DNA from: Gammaproteobacteria bacterium
GTDB lineage: Bacteria > Pseudomonadota > Gammaproteobacteria > Steroidobacterales > Rariloculaceae
DNA: 64,000 nucleotides
Assembly (NCBI GenBank): GCA_036563665.1
Contig: DATCLY010000025.1
Span: 21,042 to 85,041 of the forward strand
Direction: 5' to 3'
Shown here in pieces: positions 25,174 through 62,475 of this stretch. Each line of letters starts with the position of its first letter. The stretch's first letter is position 1. The notes under the pieces are model-generated. The model searched no databases. It was not told the origin of the DNA and was given only the letters and a program-made list of their open reading frames with translations. The position numbers and the translations under genes are program-made.

Positions 25174-25189
25174 CACGCTCACGCCTCCG

Positions 25190-34220: not shown

Positions 34221-34619
34221 TCAGCGCTGCGTGAGGTACGCGACGAGCGCGTCGAGATCGGCGTCGTCGATCTCCGTCTTGCGGAAGAACGGCATCGTCG
34301 CCACGCCGTTGCGCACGAAAGCCCTGACCGCCTCCGGCGTGAGATCCGTGCGATCCTCGAGCGCGGCCGGCACGGCGCCCTGGTACTTGTGCTGCAGCGA
34401 CGTCGTGCCGGGCGCGTTACGCGTGTCGCGGCTATGGCACGCGCTGCACCAGTTGTTGAACACCGCCGCGCCGCGCTCGACGAGCGTGCCGGCCGTCTCG
34501 TCGGCGGCCGTGGTGCGGCTCCAGGCCGCGATCGGCCGCGGCGCGTCCTGCGCGCTCGCCGCTGCCGCCGCCGCCAGCGCGCCCGCGAGCAGCGCCTTCG
34601 CCCAGCCCCGCGCCGTCAT
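34221..34619 (-). CDS. Periplasmic mono-haem cytochrome c (flavocytochrome c small subunit-like)
   Basis: ATG 34619 overlaps the upstream stop (ATGA). Signal peptide MTARGWAKALLAGALAAAAAASAQ. Haem motif CSACH and a distal MPFF methionine region. Confidence 0.85.
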   Translation of the reverse strand: MTARGWAKALLAGALAAAAAASAQDAPRPIAAWSRTTAADETAGTLVERGAAVFNNWCSACHSRDTRNAPGTTSLQHKYQGAVPAALEDRTDLTPEAVRAFVRNGVATMPFFRKTEIDDADLDALVAYLTQR

Positions 34620-36208
34620 GCGCGCGTCTCCCGCAGATGCCGCGGCCAGATGTCGTAGCGGCCCGGCGAGATGATCCCGTTCGGGTCGAGCGCGTCCTTC
34701 AACGCCTGGTGCAGCCGCTGCAGCGTCCCGCCGTTCCAGCCGAACATCTGCATGCCGAGCGCCTGGAAATGCGCGTGGATGCGATACACGGGCCAGCCGT
34801 TCGCGGAGCACTCGCGCACCAGCCGCTGGAACAGCGCCCGGATCCGGCGGTTGCCCTCGGCGTTGCGATAGGTCGGCACCGCGTGGAAGCAGATCATCGT
34901 GCGCGGATGGAACATGAGCCCGCCCACGAACGACGGCGTCATGCCCATCTCGCCGTAGATCTTGCCGGTCACGTCCGCGAGCGCGATGAGCTCCTCGCCG
35001 CGCGGCGGGATCATCGGCGAGAAGTCGAGGTGGCCCTCGCTCGGGACCGCGGTCGGCGAGCTGCGCGAGCCGAAGAGATTGAGCGACGGTATGCCGAGCC
35101 GCGCCTTGTCCGGCACCGCCTCCACCTGCTCGTCCGTGAGCGGGAAAGTGTAGGACGCCGTCTCGCGGAACTGCACGCCGGCGATGTGGCCGAGCCGGTC
35201 CTTGGTGTGCTCCCACTGCGCCGCGATGACCTTCTGCGGGCCGTAGTACACCCAGGTGGCGCTCCAGAACGGCCGGCCGTTCGCGTGGCGATCCCAGTCC
35301 GCATCCGACGCGCCGCCCGAGGTGCGCAGCCGCACGAGCTCGGGATCGTCGGAGCCGTTCATCACGGGGCTCGCCACCGTGGTCTGCGACGGGATGATGT
35401 GCGCGCACATGAGGCTGTGCAGCGCGTCCACGAGCGGCACCACGTCGCGGCGCTTCGGCACCGTGACGTTCACCTGCAGCGCCGCCTCCGGCTCCTCCAT
35501 GAGCCAGAAGCCCATCTTCGTGACGATCCCGAGATTCGACTGCGAGAAGATGCCGTCGACCCACGGCCCCAGGCCGTACTTGAAGAGCTGCCAGGTCTTC
35601 GCGCCCGGCGCGGCGCCCATGCCCGTGCGCACCACGTCGCCGTTCGCGAGCACGACTTCCATGCCGCAATGCGCGTCGAAGTGGTCGCGGTAGTCGACGT
35701 CCGTGTAGCCGCCGCCGCGGTCGAGCGCGTTGCCCACGAGGCCGCCCCAGCCCGGATCGGCCGTGTCGATCCAGAGGCGGATCCCGTTCGTGCGCAGGTA
35801 CCGGTAGAGATCGAAGTAGCTGACGCCCGGCTCCACGAGGCAGGTCTTGTCGCGCTCGTTCACGTCGAGGATGCGGTTCATGCGCTTGAGATCCAGCACC
35901 ACGCTGCCGGAGTACGTGGGCGCCGAGCCGCCGTAGGTCAGGTTGCGGCCGGTCGAGATCGGATAGAGCGGGATGCGGAACCGGTTCGCCACGCGCACGA
36001 TCGCCTGGACTTCCTCCACGGACTGCGGCGCCACGGCGGCCGAGGCGACGCGCTCCTCGGGCTCGCCCCAGAGCGGCGAGTAGGCGTCGCGGTAGAGCGC
36101 GACGTCCTCGTCGCTCGAGAACACCCACTCGCGCCCTACGATCTGCTCGAATTCGCGCAGCGCCGCGCGGAAGTCGGCGGCGTCGATGCCCGGAGGCGGA
36201 TTCGGCAT
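34616..36208 (-). CDS. FAD-linked oxidase of the p-cresol methylhydroxylase / vanillyl-alcohol oxidase family (flavoprotein subunit)
   Basis: ORF 34616..36208(-), 530 aa. FAD-binding PCMH-type domain (AVAPQSVEEVQAIVRVANRFRIPLYPISTGRNLTYGGS, VVLDLKRMNRILDVNE). The C-terminal substrate domain ends LDPNGIISPGRY. It is translationally coupled to a cytochrome c. Confidence 0.88.
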   Translation of the reverse strand: MPNPPPGIDAADFRAALREFEQIVGREWVFSSDEDVALYRDAYSPLWGEPEERVASAAVAPQSVEEVQAIVRVANRFRIPLYPISTGRNLTYGGSAPTYSGSVVLDLKRMNRILDVNERDKTCLVEPGVSYFDLYRYLRTNGIRLWIDTADPGWGGLVGNALDRGGGYTDVDYRDHFDAHCGMEVVLANGDVVRTGMGAAPGAKTWQLFKYGLGPWVDGIFSQSNLGIVTKMGFWLMEEPEAALQVNVTVPKRRDVVPLVDALHSLMCAHIIPSQTTVASPVMNGSDDPELVRLRTSGGASDADWDRHANGRPFWSATWVYYGPQKVIAAQWEHTKDRLGHIAGVQFRETASYTFPLTDEQVEAVPDKARLGIPSLNLFGSRSSPTAVPSEGHLDFSPMIPPRGEELIALADVTGKIYGEMGMTPSFVGGLMFHPRTMICFHAVPTYRNAEGNRRIRALFQRLVRECSANGWPVYRIHAHFQALGMQMFGWNGGTLQRLHQALKDALDPNGIISPGRYDIWPRHLRETRA

Positions 36209-36233
36209 GGCGGTTCCCCCTTCTGCGCCGCGA

Positions 36234-36821
36234 TCACGCGGCGGGCCGCGCTCGCGGCCCGATCACCCAGGAATAGACCGGCGCCGGTTCGATGTCATCG
36301 GGCGTGGCGGGCTCCACGAGCTCGAGCCGCACCGAGGGCGGTGACGCGGGCGTCAGGGCCAGGCGCGCGGCCTCGCCGACCCAGCGAGGGCCGGCCGCGG
36401 CCAGCATCGTTTCGGCATGCGCGGCATCGCAGCCCGCGGCCGCATGCGCGAAGCCGCCGTCCGGCGCTGGCGCGTGGCGCGCGCGCCGCTCCACCGCGAC
36501 GCCGTAGTCGCGGGCCAGGAGCTCGAGGCAGAACAACGCGCCGGTGCGCGTGAAGCCCGCGACCCGCCCGCGCCCCGCGCGCCACAACGGCTCCACCTGG
36601 TGCATCCAGGCGCCGCCGACGTCGCCCGCAATCGCCAGCACGCGCACGCCGCGCCGCTCCGCCACGGCCGCGAACTCGTCCGCGCCAGGAATCGTGTGAT
36701 CGACGATGGCGAGCGCCGGCGGCGCGGCGCTCGCGAACGCGCCGCTCGCGGGGCGTGCCGCGAGGGCCGCCAATGCGGCGCCGTAACCCAGGAATGCGCG
36801 GCGGCTGTGCAGTGCGGGCAC
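36234..36821 (-). CDS. Tat-signal hypothetical protein
   Basis: In-frame GTG 36821 of ORF 36234..36869(-), preceded by GGGGAG. The N-terminus reads ALHSRRAFLGYGAALAALAARPASGAFA, a twin-arginine signal. No domain recognised. Confidence 0.6.
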   Translation of the reverse strand: MPALHSRRAFLGYGAALAALAARPASGAFASAAPPALAIVDHTIPGADEFAAVAERRGVRVLAIAGDVGGAWMHQVEPLWRAGRGRVAGFTRTGALFCLELLARDYGVAVERRARHAPAPDGGFAHAAAGCDAAHAETMLAAAGPRWVGEAARLALTPASPPSVRLELVEPATPDDIEPAPVYSWVIGPRARPAA

Positions 36822-36905: not shown

Positions 36906-38447
36906 CTAATGCGCCTCGGCGCGGCTCGCGGCGCGCAGGATGGCGACGACCTCGTCGGCGTTCGGGAGGGGTTGCCCGTTGACCAGCGCCGTGGCCTCGT
37001 CGAGCGGCGACCTGCCGCGCGCGTCCACGATGTCGACCTCCGCGCCGTGCTCCACGAGGAACCGCGTGACCTTCACCCAGCCGCGGCCCGCGGCGGAATA
37101 GAGCGCCGTCTGGCCGTCGCGATCGGTCATCGCCGTGGGGCGCGCGATGCGCGCCGTGCGGCTCTTCGTGTCCGTCACGCGCGCGTTGATGTCCGCGCCG
37201 GCCGCGAGCAGGATCTCGAGCGACTTTATGACCTTGTCCTCGATCTCCGGGTCGTTCTCGAAATCCGGCGAGCGGTTGGCGCCGAAGTTGATGTTGCGCA
37301 CGCCCAAGCCGGCGGCGGCCATCAACGGCGTCACGCCCATGACGTTCGGCAGGTCCACCTTGGCCCCGGCGTCGAGCAGCGCCCGCATCGCCTCGTGGTC
37401 GTGCGTGATGGCCGCGCGCAGCAGCGGGGTGGCGCCCGTGGTCAGCAGGTAGTCGGTGAACCGCGCGCTGTTGCCGCCCCGGCCAGGCCGATGCATGTTG
37501 AGCTGCGGGTCCACCTCCACGCCCATCGCGAGCAGGCGCTGCACGAGGTCCATGCCGGTGGCGGTCTTCGAGCGCGGGTGGGCCGGCGTGCGCGGTACGT
37601 AGGTGTTCATGTCCACCGCGAGGTAGAGCGCCGTTCTCCCCCACCAGTCCGCGTAATGCGGGTCGGCGCCGAGGTCGAGCAGCGCCATGGCGGTGTCGAA
37701 CTCGTAGTTGTCGATCGCGAGCATGAGCGCCGTCACGCCGTCGGGCGTGGGCCGGTCCACGTCCTCGCCGGCCGCGACGATGGCGCGCACGCACTCGACG
37801 CATCCGGCCCGCGCCGCGTAGAGCAAGGGCGTCAGGCCGCCGGTCGGGCGGTACTGCGCGCGCGGCTCGGACGTGATCTGCGCGCCCCAGTCGTTCGCGG
37901 CCGCCCGCGCGGTGGGATCCGCGCCGTGCTCGAGCAGGAGCCGCGTCAAGTCCGCGTACGCGCCGCCGGCCGCCCACATGAGCGCGGTCTGCTCGCGCCA
38001 GACCTCGCGCGCGTTCACGTCCGCGCCGCGCTCGAGCAGCAGCTTCGCCACCTCCACGGAGCCCGTGCGCGCGTTCAGCATCAACGTAGTCTGGCCGTCC
38101 GCGTTCGGCGAGTCGACCTCGGCGCCCGCGTCGAGCAGGAGCTTCACGAGCGCGGGATCGGCGGCCTTCACGGCCTCGGCGAGCGGGGTCGAGCCGTAGC
38201 GGTTCTGGACGTCCGGCCTCGCGCCGCGGGCGAGCAGCAGGCGCACGAGCTCCGCGTCGAGCCTGTAGACGGCCCAGTGCAGCGGCGTCGTGCCGTCGCC
38301 CTGGGCGGCGTTCACGTCGGCGCCTTCCTCGATGAGCTCGATCGCGATGCCGCGCTGTCCCTGCTGGATCAGGTCCGCGAGGCGGCTCTCGCCCCACGCG
38401 CCTCCAGCGGCGAGCAGCGCCGCCGCCGCCAGCCAAGATCTCGTCAT
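36906..38447 (-). CDS. Secreted ankyrin-repeat protein, paralogue 2 (513 aa)
   Basis: ATG 38447 within ORF 36906..40835(-). Signal peptide MTRSWLAAAALLAAGGAWG. Multiple ankyrin units (DGTTPLHWAVYRLDAELVRLLLARGARPD, etc.). Shares the central non-canonical block TALYLAVDMNT...GATPLLRAA with the other two paralogues. Confidence 0.9.
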   Translation of the reverse strand: MTRSWLAAAALLAAGGAWGESRLADLIQQGQRGIAIELIEEGADVNAAQGDGTTPLHWAVYRLDAELVRLLLARGARPDVQNRYGSTPLAEAVKAADPALVKLLLDAGAEVDSPNADGQTTLMLNARTGSVEVAKLLLERGADVNAREVWREQTALMWAAGGAYADLTRLLLEHGADPTARAAANDWGAQITSEPRAQYRPTGGLTPLLYAARAGCVECVRAIVAAGEDVDRPTPDGVTALMLAIDNYEFDTAMALLDLGADPHYADWWGRTALYLAVDMNTYVPRTPAHPRSKTATGMDLVQRLLAMGVEVDPQLNMHRPGRGGNSARFTDYLLTTGATPLLRAAITHDHEAMRALLDAGAKVDLPNVMGVTPLMAAAGLGVRNINFGANRSPDFENDPEIEDKVIKSLEILLAAGADINARVTDTKSRTARIARPTAMTDRDGQTALYSAAGRGWVKVTRFLVEHGAEVDIVDARGRSPLDEATALVNGQPLPNADEVVAILRAASRAEAH

Positions 38448-38479
38448 CGTTCCTCGCCGCACGCGCGCCTCCGCTTGCC

Positions 38480-39424
38480 TCACACGATGTCGTGCGTGAG
38501 CTTGTTGTGGTGTGCCCAGAGTCCCTTGTGGGCCGCGTACAGGAACGCCGCCGGGTCCTGGAACGTGCGCGGCAGCCCGTCGAGCACGCCGGCCTCGAGC
38601 ATGTCCTCCGCGGTCTCGCCCATCCGCACGTGCTCCACCATGCGCTCGAACACCTCGAGCAGCAGGTCGTGCTCCGCCTGCACCTCGGCGCGCCCGACGA
38701 CGGGGCCGTAGCTCGGCACGAAGCGCGTGCGCGCATCGCTCGCCGCGAGCAGCGCGGCGAGCGAGTCCACGCGGCCGCCGAGCCAGCCGCCGCCAAACCA
38801 GTCGAGCTCGGGGTCGCGCGCGGGCGAGACGGCGTCTCCGACGGCGATGAGGTTCGCGTCCGGGAACGCCACGTAGATGTCGCCGTCGGTGTGCGCCTCG
38901 AGCAGATAGCCGCACTCGATGCGCCGGCCGCCGACGGTGGTCGCGTACGTCGTGTGGAAGCTCTCGCCCGGCACGGCGGCAGCGGGCAACGGCCGCTCGT
39001 AGCGGTCCTCGGCCGGGAGGTAGTAGCCGGTGCGGAGGCGAATGCGGGTCTTCTCGTGCGCGACGATCGTGGCCCCGGCGCGCGCGAGCGCCTCGTTGCC
39101 GCCCACCTGGTCGAGGTGCCAGTGCGTGTTGAAGAGCGCCGCTACCGGCCCGCCGGGCAGCGCCTCGAGCGCGGCCAGGAGATCCGCGGTGGAGTGGGCC
39201 GCGCCGCTGTCGACGAGCACCTTGCCGGCGTCGGTGGCCGCCACGAGCACGTGGCCGCCGGCGCCCGCGAGCAGCGTGAAGCCCGGCGCCACCTCCGTCG
39301 CCGTGACGGAGCCTGCCGCGCGGCCGACGCGCGCGAAGCGCGGCAGCGCGAGGCCCACGGCCGCGCCCGCGGCGCCGCGGAGCAGCGCCCGGCGGCTCGC
39401 GAGCGTTCCCGTCCCCCCGCGCAT
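38480..39424 (-). CDS. Tat-exported MBL-fold protein with variant metal motif (HWHLDQ)
   Basis: ORF 38480..39424(-). Tat signal LASRRALLRGAAGAAVGLALP. MBL motif 2 reads NTHWHLDQVGGN, so Gln replaces the second His of HxHxDH. Later blocks EAHTDGD and VPSYGP. Confidence 0.85.
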   Translation of the reverse strand: MRGGTGTLASRRALLRGAAGAAVGLALPRFARVGRAAGSVTATEVAPGFTLLAGAGGHVLVAATDAGKVLVDSGAAHSTADLLAALEALPGGPVAALFNTHWHLDQVGGNEALARAGATIVAHEKTRIRLRTGYYLPAEDRYERPLPAAAVPGESFHTTYATTVGGRRIECGYLLEAHTDGDIYVAFPDANLIAVGDAVSPARDPELDWFGGGWLGGRVDSLAALLAASDARTRFVPSYGPVVGRAEVQAEHDLLLEVFERMVEHVRMGETAEDMLEAGVLDGLPRTFQDPAAFLYAAHKGLWAHHNKLTHDIV

Positions 39425-39433
39425 GCGCAGGTC

Positions 39434-40777
39434 CTAGACGCCCGCGATCTCGCCCGTGCTGTCGACGAAGCTCTTCATCTCGAGCCCGGCCTTGTTGAGC
39501 ACGGTGAGATGCAGGTTCGCGAGCGTGGTGTACTCGGGAAGCTCCACGTGCTGGCCGCCGCGCAGCCTGCCGCACGCGCCGCCCACCAGGATGATCGGCA
39601 GCGGATAGTTGTTGTGGCGGTCGCTGTTGCTCATGTTCGAGCCGTACATGAGCAGCGAGTGATCGAGCAGCGAGCCCTCGCCGTCCGGCGTCTTCGCGAG
39701 CCGGTCCACGAACTCCGCGAACCGCTCCACGTGATACCGCTGGATCTTCACGAGCTTCTCGATGCGCTCCAGGTTGTTCGCGTGGTGCGACACGGGGTGG
39801 AACGCGTCCGGCACGCCGATGTGGTTGTACGTGCGGTTCGTGCCCTCGGCCACCATGATGTACGAGGCCACCCGCGTCACGTCCGCCTGGTAGGCGAGCG
39901 CGATCAGATCGAACATGAGCCGCACCTGCTCGTCGAAGTCCGGCAGCTCGCCGATGGGCGTATCCGGCAGCTCGATGCCGGAGAGATCGCGCTCCGAGGC
40001 CTTCGCGACCCGGCGCTCCGTCTCGCGCACGGACTCGAGATAGTCGTCGAGCACCACGCGGTCGCGGGGCCCCAGCGTGCGCTTGAGCTCCTGTGTGCGC
40101 TCGTTCACGAGGTCCAGCACGCTCGCCCGGCGCCGGGCGATCCGCGCGCGCTCCTCGGGCGTATCGCCCGCGCCGAAGAGCTGCACGAACACCTTGCGAG
40201 GATTGAACTCCATCGGCAACGGGGTCGTCGGGTTGCGGAACGACAGCGTCGAGCTGTAGTAGCACGCGCCGCTGCCGCAGGCGGCGCTCTGCGTGGTGGT
40301 CTCGGAGGCCACCTCGAGCGACGGCAGCACGGTGTCGCCGCCGATGTGCGCGGCGATCATCTGGTCGATGGTGGTGGCCATCTTGGCGCCCGTGGCCTTC
40401 TCGTCGGGGCGCACGCCGGAGAGCCACGTGGCCGGCACGAGCGTGTGCACCGAGTTCTGCGGCGCCTTGTTCTCGAGGTTGCTGAACGACACGACGTAGC
40501 GCTTGTAGGCCTCGAGCGGCTCCAGGATCGGGCTCAAGGTGAAGCTCTCGCCCGTGCCGCTCGGCGTCCAGCGGTCCATCGCCGCGCCGAAGGGCGTGTT
40601 CCACATGATGGCGCCGTGGGGGATGTAGAAGAATCCCGCCCTGAGCCTGGGCGCCGCCGCCGTCTGCGCGAGCGCGGTGGCCGCAGGGATCATCGCGTCG
40701 AGCAGCGGCAGGCCGAGCGCGACGCCTGCGCCGCGTAGGACCGAACGGCGGGACAAGTGCTTGCGTGTGAGAAACAT
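39434..40777 (-). CDS. DUF1552-family Tat-exported protein (cassette A)
   Basis: ORF 39434..40777(-), 447 aa. The N-terminus MFLTRKHLSRRSVLRGAGVALGLPLLDAM is the family-typical Tat signal. About half of the residues appear identical by eye to 54102..55412 (e.g. HHSLSHH/FHPVSHH, LLDHS/LLDSS, SNMSNSDRHN/SGMSESNNHD). Confidence 0.88.
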   Translation of the reverse strand: MFLTRKHLSRRSVLRGAGVALGLPLLDAMIPAATALAQTAAAPRLRAGFFYIPHGAIMWNTPFGAAMDRWTPSGTGESFTLSPILEPLEAYKRYVVSFSNLENKAPQNSVHTLVPATWLSGVRPDEKATGAKMATTIDQMIAAHIGGDTVLPSLEVASETTTQSAACGSGACYYSSTLSFRNPTTPLPMEFNPRKVFVQLFGAGDTPEERARIARRRASVLDLVNERTQELKRTLGPRDRVVLDDYLESVRETERRVAKASERDLSGIELPDTPIGELPDFDEQVRLMFDLIALAYQADVTRVASYIMVAEGTNRTYNHIGVPDAFHPVSHHANNLERIEKLVKIQRYHVERFAEFVDRLAKTPDGEGSLLDHSLLMYGSNMSNSDRHNNYPLPIILVGGACGRLRGGQHVELPEYTTLANLHLTVLNKAGLEMKSFVDSTGEIAGV

Positions 40778-40779
40778 CG

Positions 40780-43212
40780 CTACTCTCTCCTGGCTCCGGC
40801 GGCCATGGCCGTTTGCGGCCCGGCCACCGCCTCATCGTGCACCACGGCCTGCATGCGGAATGCGCCGCTCTGCACGATTCCCGTCACGATGGCGGAGAAC
40901 CGGTAGTCCTGCTCCCTCGCGGCGCGCACGATGGCGCGCACCTGCGGCATGTCGTGGTGCTCGAGCTCGCGGCCGAGCGCGTACATCATGAGCCGCTTCG
41001 TCAATGCCTGCACGAACTGGTCCTCGCGGCGCAGCAGCGCCGCCGTGAGCTCCACCGGGCCGTCGACGGCCACGCCGCCCGGCAGCACGGTGCTCGCGTC
41101 GATGGGCGCGTCGGCCTCGGCGTCGTGATCGCGCCAGCGGCCCGTGACGGTGAAGTTCTCGAGCGCGAGGCCGTAGGGGTCGATCACCCCGTGGCAGGCG
41201 TTGCAGACGCTGTCGCGGCGATGCTGCTCGAGGCGCAGCCGCAGCGTCTTCGGCATCTCGCCCGCGGTCTGCGCGAGGTTGGTCTCCACGCCGGGCGGCG
41301 GCGGCGACGGCGGCGTGCCCATGAGCCGGTCGAGCACCCACGCGCCGCGCAGCACCGGCGACGTGCGGTCGCCGTACGACGTGCGCAGCAGCACGGCCCC
41401 CTTGCCGAGCAGCCCGTGGCGCCGCGGGTCCTCGAGCGTGACGCGGCGGAACTGCGGGCCCACGACGCCCGGCACGCCGTAGTGCCGCGCCAGGCGCTCG
41501 TTCAGGAAGGTGTAGTCGGCCGTGAGCAGCGTGCGGACGTTGCGGTCCTCGAGCAGCACGCTCGCGAGGAACAGCCGGATCTCCTCGGCGAAGTCCTCGC
41601 GCAGCGCGTCGGTGAACTCCGGGAACAGCAGCTTGTCCGGCACCACGGCGTCGAGATCGTCGACGTTGAGCCAGCGCAGCGCGAACTCGTCGACGAGCAC
41701 CTCGGCCCGCGGGTCCGCGAGCATGCGCTTCACCTGCGCGTCGAGCACCTCGGGCTTTCCGAGCTCCCCGGCGGCGGCGAGCTCGAGCAGCTCGTCGTCG
41801 GGCCCGCTGCTCCAGAGGAAGAACGACAGCCGCGACGCGAGCTCGAAATCGTCGAGCGGGTACTGGCCGTCCGCGTCGGCCCGCGGCGCGATCGTGCGGA
41901 ACAGGAAATCCGGGCTCGCGAGCACCGCCGTGACAAGGAGCTCCAGCCCCTCGTCGAAGCCGCCCGGCCCCCGCCGCCCTTCCTCGTAGAACGGCATGAG
42001 CCGGTCGAGATCCGCCTGGCCGATGGGCCGCCGGAACGCGCGGCGCGCGAGGTTCACGGCGATCTGCTCCGCGCACGCGCGCTCCCGCTCCGGCACCTCG
42101 GGCTCGCAGATGAAGAGCTTGCGGCGGCTCTCGGTGGGCGAGAGGCCCGTCGAGTCGAACGGCCCGATCAGATCCACGCCGCCGTAGATGCCCGGAACAC
42201 GCGGCGCGCCCGTGAAGCTGAAGGTGTCGGTGGGCGAGAACGGCGTGATCATCTCGTCGTCGAACGCGCGCGAGCGCTCGATGAAGGTGATGGCGATCTC
42301 GTGCACGCCGGCCTTCACCGGCACCGGGATGTTCGTGAAGCGCGCCATGATCTCCGCGCGCGCGGGGGCGCCGCCGCGATCGACGAGGGCCAGGTCCTCG
42401 GGCCCGCCGATCTCGCCGCGCCACACTTCCTGACGGTCCACGAGCACCACGAGCGTGTGCCGCGTCTCGAGCGCGCGCGGGTAGAGGCCGACGCCCAGGT
42501 CCTTGAGCGTCAGGCGGTACTCGCCGTCGGCCGGAAACGTATGCGTGAAGCGGATGCCGCCCCGCGTGCCGGGCGGCATGCCGTCGACGTATCCTTCCTG
42601 GTCCTCCTCCGGGCGCGGGAAGAACACCGTCTGCACCTTGGGCCGCGGCTCGCCGACGGCGAGGTGGGCCACCGTGGCCGCGACGTTCACGTATTGCTCG
42701 ACGAAGGCGGGGGACGACGACAGCGCCGCCGCGATGTTCGTGAAGCCGTCCACCTCGATCTCGGCCGGCAGGTGCTCGGCCGGATCGATCGTGACGCCGA
42801 GCAGGTCCTTCACGGCGTGCGCATATTCCGTGCGGCTCAGGCGCTGGGCGGGGACATAGCCCGCGGCGTCGCGCGGCGCGGTCTCGTCGATGGAGCGCTC
42901 GAGCCACGCGATCAGCGCGTCGACGTCCTGCTGGCGGGGCTGCGGGCCGCCGGGCGGCGGCATCAGCCCGCCGCGGAGCTTGGTGACGACCTTCTCGAAG
43001 ACGTCGGCGTGCTGCGGCACCGCGTCGGCCGAGAACGCCTCGAAGGAGAGATCGCCCGCGCGGTCGAGATCGTTGTGGCACTCGACGCAGTACGTCTCGA
43101 GCATGTCCCAACGGTCGCGCTCGCGGGCGTGCTCCACCGCCCGCCACGACACCGCGGCCACCGTCGCGCCGACGACGGCCGCGGCCGCGAGCCATCCATG
43201 GGATCGTTTCAT
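40780..43212 (-). CDS. DUF1592/DUF1595/DUF1587/DUF1585/DUF1588 multidomain protein with CxxCH motifs (cassette A)
   Basis: ATG 43212 within ORF 40780..44544(-), 810 aa. N-terminal anchor/signal, CVECH (43075..43089) and a later CNACH. Family blocks LSFFLWSSGPDDELLELA, TADYTFLNERLARHYG, DRTSPVLRGAWVL and PPSPPPPG. Confidence 0.88.
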   Translation of the reverse strand: MKRSHGWLAAAAVVGATVAAVSWRAVEHARERDRWDMLETYCVECHNDLDRAGDLSFEAFSADAVPQHADVFEKVVTKLRGGLMPPPGGPQPRQQDVDALIAWLERSIDETAPRDAAGYVPAQRLSRTEYAHAVKDLLGVTIDPAEHLPAEIEVDGFTNIAAALSSSPAFVEQYVNVAATVAHLAVGEPRPKVQTVFFPRPEEDQEGYVDGMPPGTRGGIRFTHTFPADGEYRLTLKDLGVGLYPRALETRHTLVVLVDRQEVWRGEIGGPEDLALVDRGGAPARAEIMARFTNIPVPVKAGVHEIAITFIERSRAFDDEMITPFSPTDTFSFTGAPRVPGIYGGVDLIGPFDSTGLSPTESRRKLFICEPEVPERERACAEQIAVNLARRAFRRPIGQADLDRLMPFYEEGRRGPGGFDEGLELLVTAVLASPDFLFRTIAPRADADGQYPLDDFELASRLSFFLWSSGPDDELLELAAAGELGKPEVLDAQVKRMLADPRAEVLVDEFALRWLNVDDLDAVVPDKLLFPEFTDALREDFAEEIRLFLASVLLEDRNVRTLLTADYTFLNERLARHYGVPGVVGPQFRRVTLEDPRRHGLLGKGAVLLRTSYGDRTSPVLRGAWVLDRLMGTPPSPPPPGVETNLAQTAGEMPKTLRLRLEQHRRDSVCNACHGVIDPYGLALENFTVTGRWRDHDAEADAPIDASTVLPGGVAVDGPVELTAALLRREDQFVQALTKRLMMYALGRELEHHDMPQVRAIVRAAREQDYRFSAIVTGIVQSGAFRMQAVVHDEAVAGPQTAMAAGARRE

Positions 43213-43265: not shown

Positions 43266-43371
43266 TGGCCGGCGCGGGGCCTGAGCAGGACGGGCAAACC
43301 CGGAGCAGCGGCAATACTGTCACCCGCGCTGACCCGTGAGCACGCCGCCCGGCGCCCGACAGGGGGAAACC

Positions 43372-45201
43372 ATGCGCAGAGCTTTGGGGCTCGTCGCGCT
43401 CGCGGCGCTCGCCGCGGCGCTCAAGCCGGGCCAGGCGGCGGCACAGCGGGCCGCCCCGGCCCCGTCCCCGGCCTTCTCGGCCGAGGAGCTCACGGCCTGG
43501 CCGACAAACGGCTGGATCACGAACGGCGGCAACGTCTACAACCAGCGCTACTCGCCGCACACGCGCATCAACCGCGACAACGTGGCGCGGCTCACGCCCC
43601 GCTGGCGCACGCACCTGAACGGCTCGGGCACCGACAGCAAGTACTCGGGTCAGGCGCAGCCGCTCGTCTACGAGGGCGTCATCTACATCCCCACCGGCGC
43701 CAACGACGTCTTCGCCATGGACGTGAAGACCGGCGAGATCCTCTGGACGTACGAGGCGCACCTTTCCCCGGACCTCGTCGCCATCTGCTGCGGCTGGATG
43801 AGCCGGGGCGTGGCGATGGGCGACGGCAAGATCTTCTCGGGTCAGCTCGACGGCAAGCTCGTCGCGCTCGATCAGGCGACGGGCCGGGTGGTGTGGTCCG
43901 TGCAGGCGGAGCGGAACGAGGACGGCTTCAGCATCACGTCCGCGCCGCTCTACTACGACGGCCTCGTGATCACCGGCTTCGCGGGCGGGGACCGGGCCAC
44001 GCGCGGCCGCGTGAAGGCGTTCGACGCCAGGACGGGCGAGCTCGTGTGGACGTTCTACACGATTCCGGGCCCGGGAGAAGTCGGGCACGACACCTGGCCC
44101 GACTGGAACGACACGTGGATGTACGGCGGCGCCGCGGTCTGGCAGACGCCCGCCGTCGATCCCGAGCTGGGCCTGGTCTACTTCTCCACCGGCAACCCGG
44201 GGCCGGACTTGAACGGCTCGGTGCGGCCCGGCGACAACCTGTTCAGCGTGTCGATCGTCGCCGTCGACGCGAAGACCGGCGAATACCGCTGGCACTTCCA
44301 GCAGGTGCACCACGACCTCTGGGACTACGACTCGCCCAATCCCGTGGTCCTGTTCGACGCGATGTACGACGGCGTGCTGCGCAAGGGCATCGTGGAGGTG
44401 GGCAAGACGGGCTTCGTCTACATCCTGGATCGGATAACGGGCGAGCCGCTGATCGGCATCGAGGAGCGGCCGGTGCCGCAGGAGCCGCGGCAGGCAACCG
44501 CCGCCACGCAGCCGTTCCCCATCGGCGACGAGCTCATCCCGCACGAGATCGACATCCCGCCCGAGGGGTACGAGCTCGTGAACGATGGCCGCATCTTCAC
44601 GCCGTTCTGGGACGAGCCCGTGATCGTGAAGCCGCTCGGCACGGGCGGCGCCAACTGGCCGCCGAGCTCCTACGATCCCGAGACCAACCTGTTCTACGTC
44701 TGCGCGAACGACGGCGCGGCGGCGTACTCCACGAGCGAGGGCGGTGCCGAGTGGCTCATGCCGCAGCCGGGCTCACGCTACTTCGGCGGCGAGTACACAC
44801 GCTCCGGGGTGCCGCGGCGCGGCATCTTCGGCGCCGTGGACTTGAAGACCAATCGCATCGCGTGGCGCCAGCAGTGGGGCGACATGTGCTACGCGGGGTC
44901 CATCGTCACGCGCGGCGGCCTCGTGTTCATCGGCCGCAACGACGGGCGTATCACCGCGCTCGACAAGGCGAACGGCAAGCTGCTCTGGGAGTTCCAGACC
45001 GACGCCGGCATCCATGCGGCGCCGAGCACGTTCGAGCACGACGGACAGCAGTACCTCGTCGTGCTCTCGGCGGGGTCGTTCTTTCCCGGCACCAAGCGGG
45101 GCGACAGCGTCTGGCTGTTCGCGCTCGGCGGCGCCGAGGAGCCGAGCGGCGGCACGTCCACGCCGCCGGCCGTCGGCGGCGAGGAGACGCTCACGCACTG
45201 A
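43372..45201 (+). CDS. Periplasmic PQQ-dependent alcohol dehydrogenase family protein (D-Y-D, lanthanide-type signature)
   Basis: ATG 43372 with GGGGGA upstream. Signal peptide MRRALGLVALAALAAALKPGQAAA. Vicinal Cys pair in AICCGWMSRGVA, beta-propeller W-motifs and HHDLWDYDSPN at 44311..44343. Confidence 0.93.
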   Translation: MRRALGLVALAALAAALKPGQAAAQRAAPAPSPAFSAEELTAWPTNGWITNGGNVYNQRYSPHTRINRDNVARLTPRWRTHLNGSGTDSKYSGQAQPLVYEGVIYIPTGANDVFAMDVKTGEILWTYEAHLSPDLVAICCGWMSRGVAMGDGKIFSGQLDGKLVALDQATGRVVWSVQAERNEDGFSITSAPLYYDGLVITGFAGGDRATRGRVKAFDARTGELVWTFYTIPGPGEVGHDTWPDWNDTWMYGGAAVWQTPAVDPELGLVYFSTGNPGPDLNGSVRPGDNLFSVSIVAVDAKTGEYRWHFQQVHHDLWDYDSPNPVVLFDAMYDGVLRKGIVEVGKTGFVYILDRITGEPLIGIEERPVPQEPRQATAATQPFPIGDELIPHEIDIPPEGYELVNDGRIFTPFWDEPVIVKPLGTGGANWPPSSYDPETNLFYVCANDGAAAYSTSEGGAEWLMPQPGSRYFGGEYTRSGVPRRGIFGAVDLKTNRIAWRQQWGDMCYAGSIVTRGGLVFIGRNDGRITALDKANGKLLWEFQTDAGIHAAPSTFEHDGQQYLVVLSAGSFFPGTKRGDSVWLFALGGAEEPSGGTSTPPAVGGEETLTH

Positions 45202-52638: not shown

Positions 52639-54105
52639 TTACTGCGACTCGGCCAGGCTACGGAGCAGCGCGGCCACCGATTCGTTGAACCCGCGGCCGG
52701 GGGTGGTCACGATGTCGAGCGCGGTGCGCCCCTCGTCGTCGCGCGCGTCGACGCGCGCGCCGTTCGCGACCAGCAACGTCACGAAGGCCGCGTTGCCGAG
52801 CCGCGCGGCCCGATGCAGCGCCGTCTCGCCGTTGGCGGCCCGCGCGTTGACGTCGACGCCCGCGTCGAGCAGCAGGCGCAACGCCTCGCGCGTGCGGTCG
52901 GTGTCGACGTCGCCGACCCCGCCGACGAATGGGCGCAGCGCCCCCGCCAGCACGAACACCGCGGTGGCGCCATCGGCCTGCGTGAGCATGGGATCCGCCC
53001 CGGCCTCGAGCAGGACGCGCATGGACTCCATGTCGAGGCCCCGCGCGGCGCGCATGAGCGCCGTCGTGCCGGCGCCGAGCGTGCGATCGGGGAAACCGTG
53101 ATGCCGCGGGATGGCGGGCTCGGTGAGCTGGGCGTTCGGATTGGCGCCGTGGGCGAGCGCGAGCCGCACGAGATCGTGCGCATCCCGCTCGTCCCGGTTC
53201 GGCCGCGCCGGCCGGCCGATCTCGCGGCCGAGCGTCGCCATGTCCACCGCGGCGTAGAGCGCGTTCACGCCGGTGCGGTCCGCCACGTTCGGATCCGCGC
53301 CCGCCTCGAGCAGCTCGGCCGCGAGATCGTAGTGGGCGTTCATGATCGCGATGGCGAGCGCCGTGGTGCCGTCCGGGTCCTGCGCGTCGAGGTCCGCCCC
53401 CATTTCGACGAGCGCCCGCGCCGCGGCGCGCGAGCCCTGGCGCGCGGCCAGCATGAGCGCCGTCCAGCCGCCGGAAGGCAGCACGGTGGAGACCATGCCC
53501 GTCTGCTCCCAGTTCATGGGCAGCAGGTCGAGCACGCGGGAATGCGCGTTCGGGTCCGCGCCGCCTTCGACGAGGGCACGGATCGCGTCGGGGTGATCCT
53601 CGGCCGCGGCCCACATGAGCCCCGTCTCGCCGAGCGACGTCTCGCTCGCGTTCGGATCGGCCCCCGCACGGAGCAGCACGCGAATGGTGGCGACGTCGCC
53701 CGCCCGCGCGGCCGCCATGAGCGCCGTCTCGCCGTGGGGCAGCGCGCCGTTCACCTCCGCGCCGTGCTCGAGCAGGAGCTCCGCGAGCGGCGCGTTGCGG
53801 TTGATGGCCGCGACCCAGAGCGGCGTGATGCCGAATCGATTGGGCAGGTTGGGATCCGCGCCCGCCGCGAGCAGCGTGCGGGCCAGCTCGACGTCGTTCG
53901 CCTGGCACGCCCAGAGCAGTGCGGTCATGCCGTCGCCGCCGGGCGCGTTTACGTCACCCGCCCCGGTGCCCGCCTCGAGCAAGTCGCGCACGGCGGCGAG
54001 ATCGCCCCGCCGCGCGGCCTCGACGAGGTCCACCGATGCCGGCCGGGCGGGCCCGGCCAGCAGCAGCACGGCGAGCGCGAGCAACCAGCGCGGACGCACG
54101 CTCAA
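52639..54105 (-). CDS. Secreted ankyrin-repeat protein, paralogue 3 (about 488 aa)
   Basis: C-terminal part of ORF 52639..54900(-). No in-frame ATG near the signal peptide. TTG 54105 overlaps the DUF1552-B stop as TTGA, and GTG 54099 is the alternative. Signal peptide RPRWLLALAVLLLAGPARPA. Multiple ankyrin units. Shares the central block NALYAAVDMAT...GTTALMRAA with paralogues 1 and 2. Confidence 0.88.
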   Translation of the reverse strand: MSVRPRWLLALAVLLLAGPARPASVDLVEAARRGDLAAVRDLLEAGTGAGDVNAPGGDGMTALLWACQANDVELARTLLAAGADPNLPNRFGITPLWVAAINRNAPLAELLLEHGAEVNGALPHGETALMAAARAGDVATIRVLLRAGADPNASETSLGETGLMWAAAEDHPDAIRALVEGGADPNAHSRVLDLLPMNWEQTGMVSTVLPSGGWTALMLAARQGSRAAARALVEMGADLDAQDPDGTTALAIAIMNAHYDLAAELLEAGADPNVADRTGVNALYAAVDMATLGREIGRPARPNRDERDAHDLVRLALAHGANPNAQLTEPAIPRHHGFPDRTLGAGTTALMRAARGLDMESMRVLLEAGADPMLTQADGATAVFVLAGALRPFVGGVGDVDTDRTREALRLLLDAGVDVNARAANGETALHRAARLGNAAFVTLLVANGARVDARDDEGRTALDIVTTPGRGFNESVAALLRSLAESQ

Positions 54106-55412: not shown

Positions 55413-55425
55413 CGATCCATCTCCT

Positions 55426-62462: not shown

Positions 62463-62475
62463 CGGAGGCTCCGTC

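What the first reader, a model, noticed from the sequence alone, without database searches (positions are those of the whole stretch)
36906..43212. Cassette A: haem-motif DUF1592-family protein, Tat DUF1552 protein, variant MBL protein and secreted ankyrin protein in one tight operon
Four minus-strand genes are separated by only 2, 9 and 32 nt.
(1) An 810-aa protein with an N-terminal anchor, a CVECH motif (43075..43089), a second CNACH motif, and the block structure of the planctomycete-type DUF1585/1587/1588/1592/1595 family.
(2) A DUF1552 protein with the family-typical twin-arginine signal.
(3) A Tat-exported MBL-fold protein whose metal motif reads HWHLDQ instead of HxHxDH.
(4) A Sec-exported 513-aa ankyrin-repeat protein.

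The DUF1592/DUF1552 pair is a recurrent gene pair, and I know of no experimentally established function for it. I also know of no description of a fixed partnership with a large periplasmic ankyrin protein. One precedent for the logic is the Pseudomonas aeruginosa katB-ankB operon. There a periplasm-facing ankyrin protein supports a haem enzyme. The whole set is exported, so it is most plausibly a periplasmic redox or maturation module.
Basis: partly seen in the sequence, partly recalled or inferred. Interest (0 to 1): 0.75.

Follow-up and report, generated by a model that had tools for sequence, protein, structure and literature searches.

The report
Conserved exported cytochrome–DUF1552–ankyrin gene module
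Four tightly packed genes for exported proteins (a two-haem cytochrome, an unknown metal enzyme, a lactamase-like protein and a large ankyrin-repeat protein) are inherited together in well over a hundred soil and water bacteria, which gives a dedicated ankyrin partner to one branch of a widespread protein pair that still has no known function.

Summary
All four minus-strand genes, the 2/9/32-nt gaps, both CxxCH motifs, the two Tat signals, HWHLDQ and the ankyrin signal peptide are present. Pfam places gene 1 in the PSCyt1/PSD3/PSD5/PSD4/PSCyt3/PSD2 (DUF1592) architecture and gene 2 in DUF1552.

The adjacency is not peculiar to this genome.
- 52 of 63 informative loci from GTDB species genomes carry the ankyrin gene directly after DUF1552.
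- 68 of 72 informative metagenome loci do the same.
- The window itself holds a second, paralogous triad (cassette B, no MBL).
- Pairwise distances of the three core proteins correlate at r≈0.96 over 82 triads.

The link is clade-specific. It is present down to about 39-40% DUF1552 identity, sometimes with the ankyrin gene upstream, and absent at 34-38%.

The MBL is an accessory. It has a degenerate second metal site, and every triad that has it also has a CxxC motif in the ankyrin protein.

A moderate-confidence model puts DUF1552 in the alkaline-phosphatase/sulfatase fold.

Function remains unknown. My best reading is a periplasmic redox-coupled enzyme complex with the ankyrin protein as a dedicated third subunit. 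In this lineage it lies next to a lanthanide-type PQQ dehydrogenase. I found no published description.

The parts
40780..43212 (-). Gene 1: DUF1592-type di-haem c-type cytochrome, 810 aa, with an N-terminal hydrophobic anchor or signal. Domain order: cyt c, PSD3, PSD5, PSD4, PSCyt3, PSD2.
   Evidence: Pfam. Both CxxCH motifs and Met84 are invariant in 65-66 of 66 orthologues.
43075..43089 (-). Haem-binding motif 1, CVECH (residues 42-46)
41191..41205 (-). Haem-binding motif 2, CNACH (residues 670-674, inside PSCyt3/DUF1588)
39434..40777 (-). Gene 2: DUF1552 (HXXSHH) protein, 447 aa, Tat signal (SRR at 40745-40753), HPVSHH at 39782-39799. Predicted alkaline-phosphatase/sulfatase-like core with many invariant His/Asp/Glu.
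   Evidence: Pfam 274 bits. RR present in 82/82 orthologues. Invariant columns. AF2 pLDDT 65.7, pTM 0.69. Top-ranked Foldseek hits all from the alkaline-phosphatase superfamily, but weak.
38480..39424 (-). Gene 3: Tat-exported MBL-fold protein, 314 aa. HWHLDQ at 39107-39124. Only the three-His site is conserved. Accessory member of the module.
36906..38447 (-). Gene 4: Sec-exported ankyrin-repeat protein, 513 aa, about 12 helix-pair repeats with five long loop insertions. CxxC (CVEC) at 37791-37802, at the start of a repeat helix.
   Evidence: Pfam. AF2 pLDDT 86.8, pTM 0.85. Family-specific invariant residues E148, W158, R213. Signal-like N-terminus in 79/82 orthologues.
43336..45201 (+). Divergently transcribed PQQ-dependent alcohol dehydrogenase, 621 aa, with vicinal CC at 43786-43791 and WDYD at 44320-44331. 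Associated with the cassette only in the closest clade.
   Evidence: Pfam/NCBIfam. Close orthologue (phmmer score above 1000 bits) adjacent in 11 of the genome-set loci (L004-L009, L012, L014, L017, L066; L013 cut by the contig end) and in L163; on the ankyrin strand starting within about 20 nt of the ankyrin match in L005, L007, L009 and L017. Best solved relatives are 6zcv/6zcw ethanol dehydrogenase and XoxF 6dam.
34221..36821 (-). Lineage-specific downstream genes on the same strand: Tat-signal protein of about 195 aa with no Pfam hit (36234-36821), VAO/PCMH-type flavoprotein (34616-36208), and cytochrome c (34221-34619, ATGA overlap). Not part of the conserved module.
   Evidence: Present in the nearest relative L163; absent from the other loci.
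52639..57849 (-). Cassette B, a paralogous triad in the same window: DUF1592 55426-57849, DUF1552 54102-55412, ankyrin 52639-54105 (TTGA start/stop overlap). No MBL and no CxxC in its ankyrin protein.
   Evidence: Identity to cassette A is 47/46/38%.

Best explanation
**Shown.** Cassette A is one copy of a conserved module of exported proteins. The core is three genes that are inherited as a unit:
- a di-haem c-type cytochrome of the DUF1592 architecture, anchored or secreted by a hydrophobic N-terminus;
- a Tat-exported DUF1552 protein;
- a Sec-exported ankyrin solenoid of 500-700 aa.

A Tat-exported MBL-fold protein is an accessory in one branch, type A, to which this cassette belongs.

**Inferred.**
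- DUF1552 is the catalytic subunit. It would be a His-rich metalloenzyme on an alkaline-phosphatase/sulfatase-like scaffold, folded or loaded with metal in the cytoplasm, which would explain Tat export.
- The DUF1592 cytochrome is its electron-transfer partner. It would connect DUF1552 to the respiratory chain or to periplasmic dehydrogenases.
- The ankyrin protein is a dedicated third subunit. It would act as a scaffold or adaptor that holds the enzyme, the cytochrome or a macromolecular substrate on its groove.
- In type A, the MBL-like protein, which has one metal site at most and in some lineages none, docks on or works with the complex.
- In the window's lineage the module is wired next to a lanthanide-type PQQ alcohol dehydrogenase. 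That enzyme is a plausible electron donor.

The substrate is unknown.
For: **Family and motif assignments.**

**Conservation of the gene set.**
- Of 63 informative genome loci, 44 have the order 1592-1552-MBL-Ank, 2 have the MBL first and 6 lack the MBL, so 52 of 63 have the ankyrin gene directly downstream.
- 68 of 72 informative metagenome loci (42-54% identity, GC 0.44-0.71) have the ankyrin gene within 1 kb downstream.
- Cassette B in the window is a paralogous triad.

**The link survives rearrangement.**
- MBL first: L079, L081, L120, L140, L142, L159.
- MBL divergent or convergent: L107, L114, L123, L125, L141, L148.
- Ankyrin gene upstream of DUF1592 with a 4-nt overlap: L165.

**Co-divergence.** Pairwise distances of the three proteins correlate at r = 0.956-0.962 over 82 triads; 0 of 999 Mantel permutations reached the observed value.

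**One ankyrin family.** Distant ankyrin partners keep the family-specific motifs (QTALMWA, GG.T.L..AAR.G) and align over about 500 residues.

**Export signals.** Conserved in orthologues.

**DUF1552 fold.** The top-ranked Foldseek hits are all alkaline-phosphatase-superfamily enzymes: LtaS, sulfatases, phosphonate monoester hydrolase, ENPP, alkaline phosphatase. Invariant His, Asp and Glu residues are listed.

**Neighbours.** PQQ dehydrogenases are the commonest flanking family (17 loci) and Ior-type molybdenum dehydrogenases come next among identified families (12 loci).

**Literature.** The sister module DUF1501 + PSCyt1/2/PSD1 has been read as membrane-targeted electron transport of unknown function (PMC3542564).
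Against: - No experiment bears on any of these proteins.
- The DUF1552 model has only moderate confidence (pLDDT 65.7). The Foldseek matches are weak (E 5e-3 to 0.6, TM 0.2-0.4). Neither a sequence search nor a profile search of the PDB, nor Pfam at E up to 10, links DUF1552 to the alkaline-phosphatase superfamily.
- To my knowledge, known members of that superfamily are hydrolases, transferases or mutases, not redox enzymes, so a cytochrome partner is unexplained.
- Some loci keep DUF1552-MBL without DUF1592 or ankyrin (L021, L022, L052). Eight of 63 loci lack the ankyrin gene. The partners are therefore not strictly obligatory.
- The PQQ link holds only in the closest clade.
- Co-divergence also follows from simple co-inheritance in an operon and does not prove physical contact.
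Confidence: 0.45

Rival explanations
1. **Cofactor-delivery or maturation reading.** The ankyrin protein is a chaperone that delivers haem or metal to DUF1592 or DUF1552, or stabilises them. This follows the model of small ankyrin proteins that support haem enzymes: P. aeruginosa AnkB with KatB, and C. jejuni Cj1386 with KatA. The MBL-like protein would be a second maturation factor.
For: - A precedent exists. Flint et al. [quoted passage not shown]
- The ankyrin protein diverges faster than the two presumed enzymes (mean p-distance 0.556 against 0.45 and 0.515). That fits an accessory factor.
- The CxxC motif sits at a helix N-terminus in type A.
Against: - From established knowledge, c-type haem is attached by the Ccm/CcsBA machinery and needs no dedicated carrier.
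- A 500-700 aa solenoid of 12 repeats, conserved at one copy per cassette, looks more like a stoichiometric subunit than a chaperone.
- There is no sequence relationship to AnkB or Cj1386 beyond the repeat itself; this was not tested directly.
Confidence: 0.2
2. **Hydrolytic scavenging reading.** DUF1552 is a phosphatase-, sulfatase- or phosphodiesterase-like enzyme and the MBL protein is a hydrolase. Together they form a periplasmic nutrient-scavenging or polymer-degrading set. The ankyrin protein and the large non-haem part of DUF1592 bind the substrate. The haems would serve sensing or stability rather than catalysis.
For: - The fold matches are to hydrolases and transferases of the alkaline-phosphatase superfamily.
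- Several paralogous triads occur per genome, as is usual for substrate-specific catabolic sets: cassettes A and B in the window, L127, L151.
- A TonB-dependent receptor lies next to the cassette in L001 and L075.
- Published PSCyt proteins sometimes carry carbohydrate-binding modules (PMC5615132; PMC3542564).
Against: - Both CxxCH motifs and the Met ligand are invariant in 65-66 of 66 orthologues, which argues for functional haems.
- The MBL metal site is degenerate, and in L159 it is lost altogether.
- No hydrolase-family profile matches DUF1552.
Confidence: 0.15
3. **Enzyme-inhibitor reading.** The ankyrin protein is a co-exported inhibitor that keeps DUF1552 or the MBL protein inactive until it is released. 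(From memory: ankyrin-type self-protection proteins are known in Bdellovibrio.)
For: - Gene coupling is tight, with start/stop overlaps (TTGA in cassette B) and one ankyrin gene per enzyme gene.
- The ankyrin protein evolves fast.
Against: - The cassette shows no toxin-like features and no mobile-element or secretion-system context.
- PADLOC gives only generic ankyrin hits.
- The module is chromosomal, vertically inherited and multi-copy.
Confidence: 0.08
4. **Synteny without function.** The four genes are neighbours by descent only and do not work together.
For: Many of the loci sampled come from related uncultured Gammaproteobacteria.
Against: - The adjacency holds across Pseudomonadota and Acidobacteriota, at GC contents from 0.44 to 0.71 and down to 39-40% identity.
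- It persists through changes of gene order and orientation.
- The flanking genes are not conserved.
Confidence: 0.02

Closest known systems
DUF1592-type (PSCyt3/PSD) + DUF1552 (HXXSHH) two-gene pairs of Planctomycetes and Verrucomicrobia (from memory: Studholme et al. 2004; also He et al. 2017, PMC5615132)
   Same: Same two Pfam architectures, same gene order, Tat signal on DUF1552, function unknown.
   Different: This clade adds a dedicated, co-diverging ankyrin gene and often an MBL gene. It occurs in Gammaproteobacteria, Alphaproteobacteria and Acidobacteriota. More distant DUF1552 pairs (34-38% identity) have no ankyrin gene.
DUF1501 + PSCyt1/PSCyt2/PSD1 modules of PVC bacteria (Kamneva et al. 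2012, PMC3542564)
   Same: Same logic: a Tat-signal protein of unknown function paired with a large cytochrome-c-motif protein, present in many paralogous copies and read as membrane-targeted electron transport.
   Different: Different Pfam families. No ankyrin partner is described there. From memory, DUF1501 is filed with the alkaline-phosphatase clan; for DUF1552 I have only a moderate-confidence structural match.
Small ankyrin partners of haem enzymes: P. aeruginosa katB-ankB and C. jejuni Cj1386-KatA
   Same: An ankyrin-repeat protein is genetically tied to a haem protein and supports it. The reference is cited in PMC4518328.
   Different: From memory, those proteins are under 200 aa and their partner is a catalase with non-covalent haem. 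Here the ankyrin protein has 513 aa and about 12 repeats, and its partners are a c-type cytochrome and a DUF1552 protein. Homology beyond the repeat was not tested.
SoxH-related 'quinoprotein relay system zinc metallohydrolases' (NCBIfam TIGR04558/TIGR04559) and subclass B1 metallo-beta-lactamases
   Same: Exported MBL-fold proteins. They give the best NCBIfam matches to the cassette MBL (E 1e-15 to 1e-20). Both the relay-system proteins and this MBL lie near PQQ dehydrogenases. The HxHxD-nonHis motif matches B1 enzymes.
   Different: Scores fall far below the family cut-offs (57 against 280, and 72 against 100). The Cys221 position is Asp and the His263 position is Tyr/Phe/Thr. Asp120 is variable.
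Alkaline-phosphatase superfamily (LtaS, sulfatases, phosphonate monoester hydrolases, ENPP)
   Same: The top-ranked Foldseek matches of the DUF1552 model belong to this superfamily.
   Different: There is no sequence-level or profile-level similarity. DUF1552 has a long helical insertion (about residues 193-297) and a His-rich set of conserved residues in place of the usual Asp/Ser/Thr/formylglycine set.

Membership tests
DUF1592-group (planctomycete-type PSCyt/PSD cytochromes) | Pfam domains PSD3, PSD5, PSD4, PSCyt3 and PSD2, in that order, above the gathering scores | tested here: met
   70.4, 62.7, 160.9, 113.2 and 84.5 bits against cut-offs of 23-34.
DUF1592-group (planctomycete-type PSCyt/PSD cytochromes) | CxxCH haem-binding motifs in the N-terminal cytochrome domain and in PSCyt3 | tested here: met
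   CVECH and CNACH are present and invariant in 65-66 of 66 orthologues. Haem attachment itself cannot be tested with these tools.
DUF1552 (HXXSHH, PF07586) | Pfam model above the gathering score, and the HxxSHH motif | tested here: met
   274.3 bits against 30. HPVSHH at residues 327-332; H327, S330, H331 and H332 are invariant.
DUF1552 (HXXSHH, PF07586) | N-terminal twin-arginine signal | tested here: met
   SRR at residues 9-11. RR occurs in 82/82 orthologues. The weak Pfam TAT_signal hit is below its threshold. Export itself was not tested.
Metallo-beta-lactamase superfamily (PF00753) | Pfam model above the gathering score | tested here: met
   60.5 bits against 22.7.
Metallo-beta-lactamase superfamily (PF00753) | Complete binuclear site: HxHxDH, His196, Asp/Cys221, His263 | tested here: not met
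   H101, H103 and H178 are conserved. Gln stands at the last motif position in 46/58 sequences. The Asp120 position is D/E/A. The His263 position is never His. L159 has lost both motif His residues.
Class B beta-lactamases / quinoprotein-relay SoxH-like hydrolases (NCBIfam) | Score at or above the curated cut-off | tested here: not met
   bla_class_B_core 71.7 against 100; TIGR04559 57.3 against 280; TIGR04558 46.6 against 300.
Ankyrin-repeat proteins | Pfam Ank models above threshold and a helix-pair solenoid | tested here: met
   Ank_2 208 bits and Ank 181.7 bits. The AF2 model (pLDDT 86.8) shows 12 helix pairs.
AnkB/Cj1386-type haem-enzyme helpers | Orthology to AnkB or Cj1386, and a requirement for the activity of a partner haem enzyme | not tested
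   No AnkB or Cj1386 sequence was compared. The functional requirement needs genetics.
Alkaline-phosphatase superfamily (as the fold of DUF1552) | Structural match of the alpha/beta core with the metal ligands in the canonical places | tested here: inconclusive
   The top-ranked Foldseek hits are from the superfamily, but with E 5e-3 to 0.6 and TM 0.2-0.4, on a model of pLDDT 65.7. There is no sequence or profile match. Ligand positions could not be inspected.

The most novel reading that the evidence does not exclude
**Main novel reading.** The DUF1592-DUF1552-ankyrin triad is a new kind of periplasmic oxidoreductase complex.
- An enzyme on the alkaline-phosphatase fold has become redox-coupled to a di-haem cytochrome.
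- A large ankyrin solenoid is an obligate structural subunit. To my knowledge, no bacterial respiratory or periplasmic enzyme complex with such a subunit has been described.

**A sharper sub-version for type A.**
- The CxxC of the ankyrin protein is a covalent carrier or relay site.
- The MBL-like protein acts on the cysteine-bound intermediate, as a glyoxalase-II-type thioesterase would.
- Electrons come from an adjacent lanthanide-type PQQ dehydrogenase.
- This would parallel the SoxYZ-carrier plus SoxH-like 'quinoprotein relay system'.
Probability: 0.2. Interest if true: 0.85.

Novelty: new variant of a known kind. Interest (0 to 1): 0.62.

Why it matters
**An open question with a new handle.** DUF1552/DUF1592-type pairs and their DUF1501/PSCyt sisters are abundant in Planctomycetes, Verrucomicrobia and many soil bacteria. 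DUF1552 alone has about 16,000 clusters at 50% identity. The two papers I read on these modules state that the function is unknown (PMC5615132; PMC3542564).

**What this clade offers.** It is a defined, clade-specific version with extra, informative partners:
- a dedicated ankyrin protein;
- an MBL-like protein that always comes with a CxxC motif in the ankyrin protein;
- PQQ or molybdenum dehydrogenases nearby.

**Why that helps.**
- The partners give experimental entry points: complex isolation through the ankyrin protein, and cysteine mutants.
- The module lies in Proteobacteria and Acidobacteriota, outside the Planctomycetes and Verrucomicrobia in which these pairs were first described.
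- To my knowledge, large periplasmic ankyrin proteins with a defined partner are rare in bacteria.

Tried and rejected
- **Sequence and profile searches for DUF1552 and DUF1592.** Searching the PDB with both sequences and with a DUF1552 profile gave nothing. Pfam at E up to 10 for 11 diverse DUF1552 proteins gave only DUF1552 and a weak TAT_signal hit.
- **Literature.** Searches for DUF1552, DUF1592, DUF1585/7/8, DUF1595, PSCyt, HXXSHH, DUF1501, DUF1549 and DUF1553 found no functional study.
- **Promoters and terminators.** The scan of 33.8-45.4 kb gave nothing above the shuffled expectation. Operon boundaries therefore rest on gene spacing alone.
- **RNA families.** Rfam at gathering thresholds found no RNA family in 30-60 kb.
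- **Defence systems.** PADLOC gave only generic ankyrin hits, so a defence-system reading was dropped.
- **Gene fusions as 'Rosetta stone' evidence.** The only two ORFs with both MBL and ankyrin matches (L009, L068) lie in assemblies whose cassette genes are visibly broken by frameshifts. I did not count them.
- **Downstream genes as part of the module.** The Tat-195, VAO-flavoprotein and cytochrome c genes were considered. They are found only in the nearest relative and were rejected.
- **Unbiased clustering of flanking ORFs over about 160 loci.** No further family is shared by more than 17 loci.

Full report
**1. Observation**

The window has about 71% G+C. ORF listing and junction sequences confirm four minus-strand genes:
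- a DUF1592-type gene at 40780-43212 (810 aa);
- a DUF1552 gene at 39434-40777 (447 aa);
- an MBL gene at 38480-39424 (314 aa);
- an ankyrin gene at 36906-38447 (513 aa).

The gaps are 2, 9 and 32 nt.

Pfam places gene 1 in the architecture Cytochrome_CBB3/PSCyt1 - PSD3 - PSD5 - PSD4 - PSCyt3 - PSD2. Gene 2 falls in HXXSHH/DUF1552 (274 bits), gene 3 in Lactamase_B and gene 4 in the Ank families. NCBIfam has no model for genes 1 and 2.

DUF1552 of the window is 100% identical to an NCBI protein of a 'MAG TPA: Gammaproteobacteria bacterium'. The related genomes include Candidatus Rariloculaceae.

**2. A second copy in the same window**

Cassette B consists of DUF1592 at 55426-57849, DUF1552 at 54102-55412 and an ankyrin gene at 52639-54105. 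The ankyrin start overlaps the DUF1552 stop (TTGA). It has no MBL gene. Its three proteins are 47%, 46% and 38% identical to those of cassette A over their full lengths. The triad was therefore duplicated, or acquired twice, as a unit.

**3. Conservation**

*Genome set.* I scanned one genome per GTDB species with peptide patterns taken from the A/B DUF1552 alignment. This returned 80 loci at 51-89% identity. The taxa are Gammaproteobacteria (Rariloculaceae, Steroidobacteraceae, Pseudohongiellaceae), MAGs labelled Alphaproteobacteria, and Acidobacteriota (Terriglobia, Vicinamibacterales, Solibacteraceae).

I annotated the loci by phmmer with the window proteins. Of 63 loci with enough sequence on both sides:

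| Arrangement | Loci |
|---|---|
| 1592-1552-MBL-Ank | 44 |
| MBL-1592-1552-Ank | 2 |
| 1592-1552-Ank, no MBL | 6 |
| No ankyrin gene | 8 |
| Extra lone DUF1552 copy beside a complete divergent cassette | 3 |

*Metagenome set.* A scan ranked on cassette B gave 80 more distant loci, at 42-54% identity and GC 0.44-0.71. Of the 72 with at least 600 nt downstream, 68 have an ankyrin gene on the same strand within 1 kb of DUF1552, usually within 100 nt. Only 10 of the 80 have an MBL gene. It lies upstream on the same strand, upstream and divergent, or downstream and convergent.

*Flanks.* Unbiased clustering of flanking ORFs found no other family in more than 17 loci. The conserved unit is the triad, with or without the MBL.

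*Caveat.* Both sets were retrieved with patterns from this subfamily, and only the best 80 hits were kept. They describe the subfamily, not all DUF1552 proteins.

**4. Limits of the clade**

Against 1.84 billion cluster representatives, DUF1552-A finds 15,962 clusters at E ≤ 1e-3 and 1,785 at E ≤ 1e-30. Only 27 full-length representatives among the best 150 reach 39% BLASTP identity.

I looked up the gene neighbourhoods of distant representatives:

| Identity to DUF1552-A | Locus | Result |
|---|---|---|
| 40% | L165 | Ank-1592-1552, ankyrin gene upstream with a 4-nt overlap |
| 40% | L170 | 1592-1552-Ank (697 aa) |
| 39% | L169 | 1592-1552-Ank (630 aa) |
| 38% | L171 | no ankyrin gene |
| 37% | P0383 locus | no ankyrin gene; the third gene is a 533-aa protein with no Pfam hit |
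| 36% | L168 | no ankyrin gene |
| 35% | L164 | no ankyrin gene |
| 34% | L173, L174 | no ankyrin gene |

Two further look-ups were uninformative. An extra DUF1592/DUF1552 pair in L033 also lacks an ankyrin gene.

The ankyrin link is therefore clade-specific. It is near-universal inside a branch that makes up a small percentage of the family's diversity, and it is absent outside that branch.

**5. Co-inheritance**

Over 82 complete triads, pairwise p-distances correlate as follows:
- DUF1592 against DUF1552: r = 0.958;
- DUF1552 against ankyrin: r = 0.956;
- DUF1592 against ankyrin: r = 0.962.

None of 999 Mantel permutations reached the observed value.

The ankyrin proteins form one family. 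They share non-generic conserved positions (E148, QTALMW158, GG.T.L..A.R213) and long loop insertions. The distant partners in L165 and L169 keep these features and align over about 500 residues at 30-36% identity. This shows a single origin and joint descent. It does not by itself prove physical contact.

**6. The individual proteins**

*DUF1592.* Both CxxCH motifs and Met84 (in GGLMPPP) are invariant in 65-66 of 66 orthologues. That fits a functional di-haem cytochrome c. Most orthologues have a hydrophobic N-terminus.

*DUF1552.*
- The twin-arginine motif occurs in 82 of 82 orthologues.
- The signal region itself is unusually conserved (LPLLDAM.PA.TA).
- Many His, Asp and Glu residues are invariant: H54, H111, D138, E155, E159, H327, H331, H332, D372 and H388.
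- There is no solved relative by sequence or profile.
- An AF2 model from 46 sequences reached pLDDT 65.7 and pTM 0.69.
- Its top-ranked Foldseek matches in the PDB are all alkaline-phosphatase-superfamily enzymes (LtaS, sulfatases, phosphonate monoester hydrolases, ENPP, alkaline phosphatase). The scores are weak: E from 5e-3 upward, TM 0.2-0.4.
- I take the fold assignment as probable, not settled.

*MBL.*
- The nearest solved relatives are B1 enzymes, which also have a non-His residue after HxHxD.
- In 58 orthologues H101, H103 and H178 are conserved. The Asp120 position varies (D 35, E 14, A 7). Gln106 occurs in 46 of 58. Asp197 (55 of 58) stands at the position of the B1 Cys221. The His263 position is Tyr, Phe or Thr. 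The Tat motif is conserved.
- More distant partners read HWH-x-[D/E/N/G/A]-[Q/H], and one (L159) has lost both His residues.
- The protein thus has one metal site at most and may be non-catalytic in some lineages.
- Its best NCBIfam neighbours, far below their cut-offs, are the class-B core and the SoxH-related 'quinoprotein relay system' hydrolases.

*Ankyrin protein.*
- The AF2 model is confident (pLDDT 86.8, pTM 0.85). It shows 12 helix pairs with five loop insertions.
- A signal-like N-terminus occurs in 79 of 82 orthologues.
- A CxxC motif (C216, C219) lies at the start of helix 217-225. It is present in 58 of 82 triads.
- All 52 triads that have an MBL nearby have the CxxC. All 24 triads without the CxxC lack the MBL. 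Six triads have the CxxC without an MBL.
- This may be a functional link or merely a split between two clades.

**7. Context**

*PQQ dehydrogenase.* A PQQ-dependent dehydrogenase is transcribed divergently from the cassette (43336-45201).
- A close orthologue lies next to the cassette in 11 of the 80 genome-set loci and in L163. In L005, L007, L009 and L017 it lies on the same strand as the ankyrin gene, and its match begins within about 20 nt of the end of the ankyrin match.
- It has the vicinal Cys-Cys and a WDYD motif.
- Its best solved relatives are the ethanol dehydrogenase 6zcv/6zcw and XoxF 6dam.
- From established knowledge of these enzymes, the extra Asp two residues after the catalytic Asp marks lanthanide-dependent members. 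I did not verify this by alignment.

*Other dehydrogenases.* Ior-type molybdenum dehydrogenase genes recur in 12 loci.

*Downstream genes.* The Tat-signal protein of about 195 aa, the VAO-type flavoprotein and the cytochrome c that follow cassette A are shared only with the nearest relative, GCA_036381915.1. They are not part of the module.

**8. Interpretation**

*What is shown.* This is a conserved, exported, co-inherited gene module whose core is cytochrome + DUF1552 + ankyrin.

*What I infer.*
- DUF1552 is a Tat-exported metalloenzyme.
- The cytochrome is its electron-transfer partner.
- The ankyrin protein is a dedicated subunit or scaffold.
- The MBL-like protein is an accessory of type A.
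- Periplasmic dehydrogenases are plausible electron sources in some lineages.

*Weaknesses.*
- To my knowledge, no alkaline-phosphatase-fold enzyme is redox-active.
- The DUF1552 model is only moderately confident.
- Some loci drop one or two partners.

*Rivals.* The alternatives are a cofactor-delivery chaperone, a hydrolytic scavenging set and an enzyme-inhibitor pair. Pure synteny is effectively excluded.

**9. Novelty**

The pair DUF1592/DUF1552 is known as a recurrent pair of unknown function (PMC5615132). So is the analogous DUF1501/PSCyt module (PMC3542564). In the searchable literature I found no mention of an ankyrin or MBL partner.

I therefore rate the finding a new variant of a known kind. 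It is of solid interest because it gives handles on a long-standing unknown, but it does not yet reveal a mechanism.

Noticed in passing
window 52639-57849 (-): Cassette B is a second, paralogous DUF1592-DUF1552-ankyrin triad. It has no MBL gene. The ankyrin start overlaps the DUF1552 stop (TTGA), and its ankyrin protein lacks the CxxC motif.
   Followed up: yes
window 43336-45201 (+): This PQQ-dependent alcohol dehydrogenase has a vicinal Cys-Cys (43786-43791) and WDYD (44320-44331). Its best solved relatives are the ethanol dehydrogenase 6zcv/6zcw and XoxF. The extra Asp suggests a lanthanide-dependent enzyme. No small cytochrome c gene lies beside it.
   Followed up: partly
window 34221-36821 (-): A flavocytochrome set resembling p-cresol methylhydroxylase follows cassette A. 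It comprises a VAO-type FAD protein (34616-36208) and a 132-aa cytochrome c (34221-34619, ATGA overlap). A Tat-signal protein of about 195 aa with no Pfam hit (36234-36821) precedes them. The set is shared only with the nearest relative, L163.
   Followed up: partly
window 40690-40777 (-), DUF1552 residues 1-30: The Tat signal region of DUF1552 (F.TKKHLSRR..L.G.GV.L.LPLLDAM.PA.TA) is nearly invariant across proteins that are otherwise only 38-50% identical. That is unusual for a cleaved signal peptide. It may remain as an anchor, or it may be recognised by a specific partner.
   Followed up: no
window 51675-52511 (-): A 278-aa lipoprotein-like protein with no Pfam hit lies downstream of cassette B. 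A homologue (379 bits) lies between an A-type cassette and a PQQ dehydrogenase in L004 (13250-14086).
   Followed up: no
L127 318-9855; L151 444-11103; L050, L067, L073: Several triads can lie side by side: in tandem in L127 and convergent in L151. In L050, L067 and L073 an extra lone DUF1552 copy lies divergent from a full cassette. The module multiplies within genomes.
   Followed up: no
L021 3858-7612; L022 5997-8260; L052 9001-11277: These loci carry a DUF1552-MBL pair without a DUF1592 or ankyrin gene. The MBL link therefore does not depend on the ankyrin gene.
   Followed up: no
L159 1007-1933 (+): The MBL partner in this low-GC locus reads NWRPEH in place of HWHxDQ. Both motif histidines are lost, so this copy may be a pseudoenzyme.
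   Followed up: no
JGI 3300047160 contig (no DNA held): At 37% DUF1552 identity, the position of the third gene is taken by a 533-aa protein with no Pfam hit, which overlaps DUF1552 by 29 nt. It may be a non-ankyrin replacement partner.
   Followed up: no
window 61611-62645 (-): A second, unrelated MBL-fold protein (344 aa, Lactamase_B 74 bits) lies in the window, outside both cassettes.
   Followed up: no
window 22756-25317 (-) and 26860-29823 (-): A DUF4953 Met-zincin/DUF5117 protein and a TonB-dependent receptor lie here. They are ordinary features of this kind of environmental Gammaproteobacterium.
   Followed up: no
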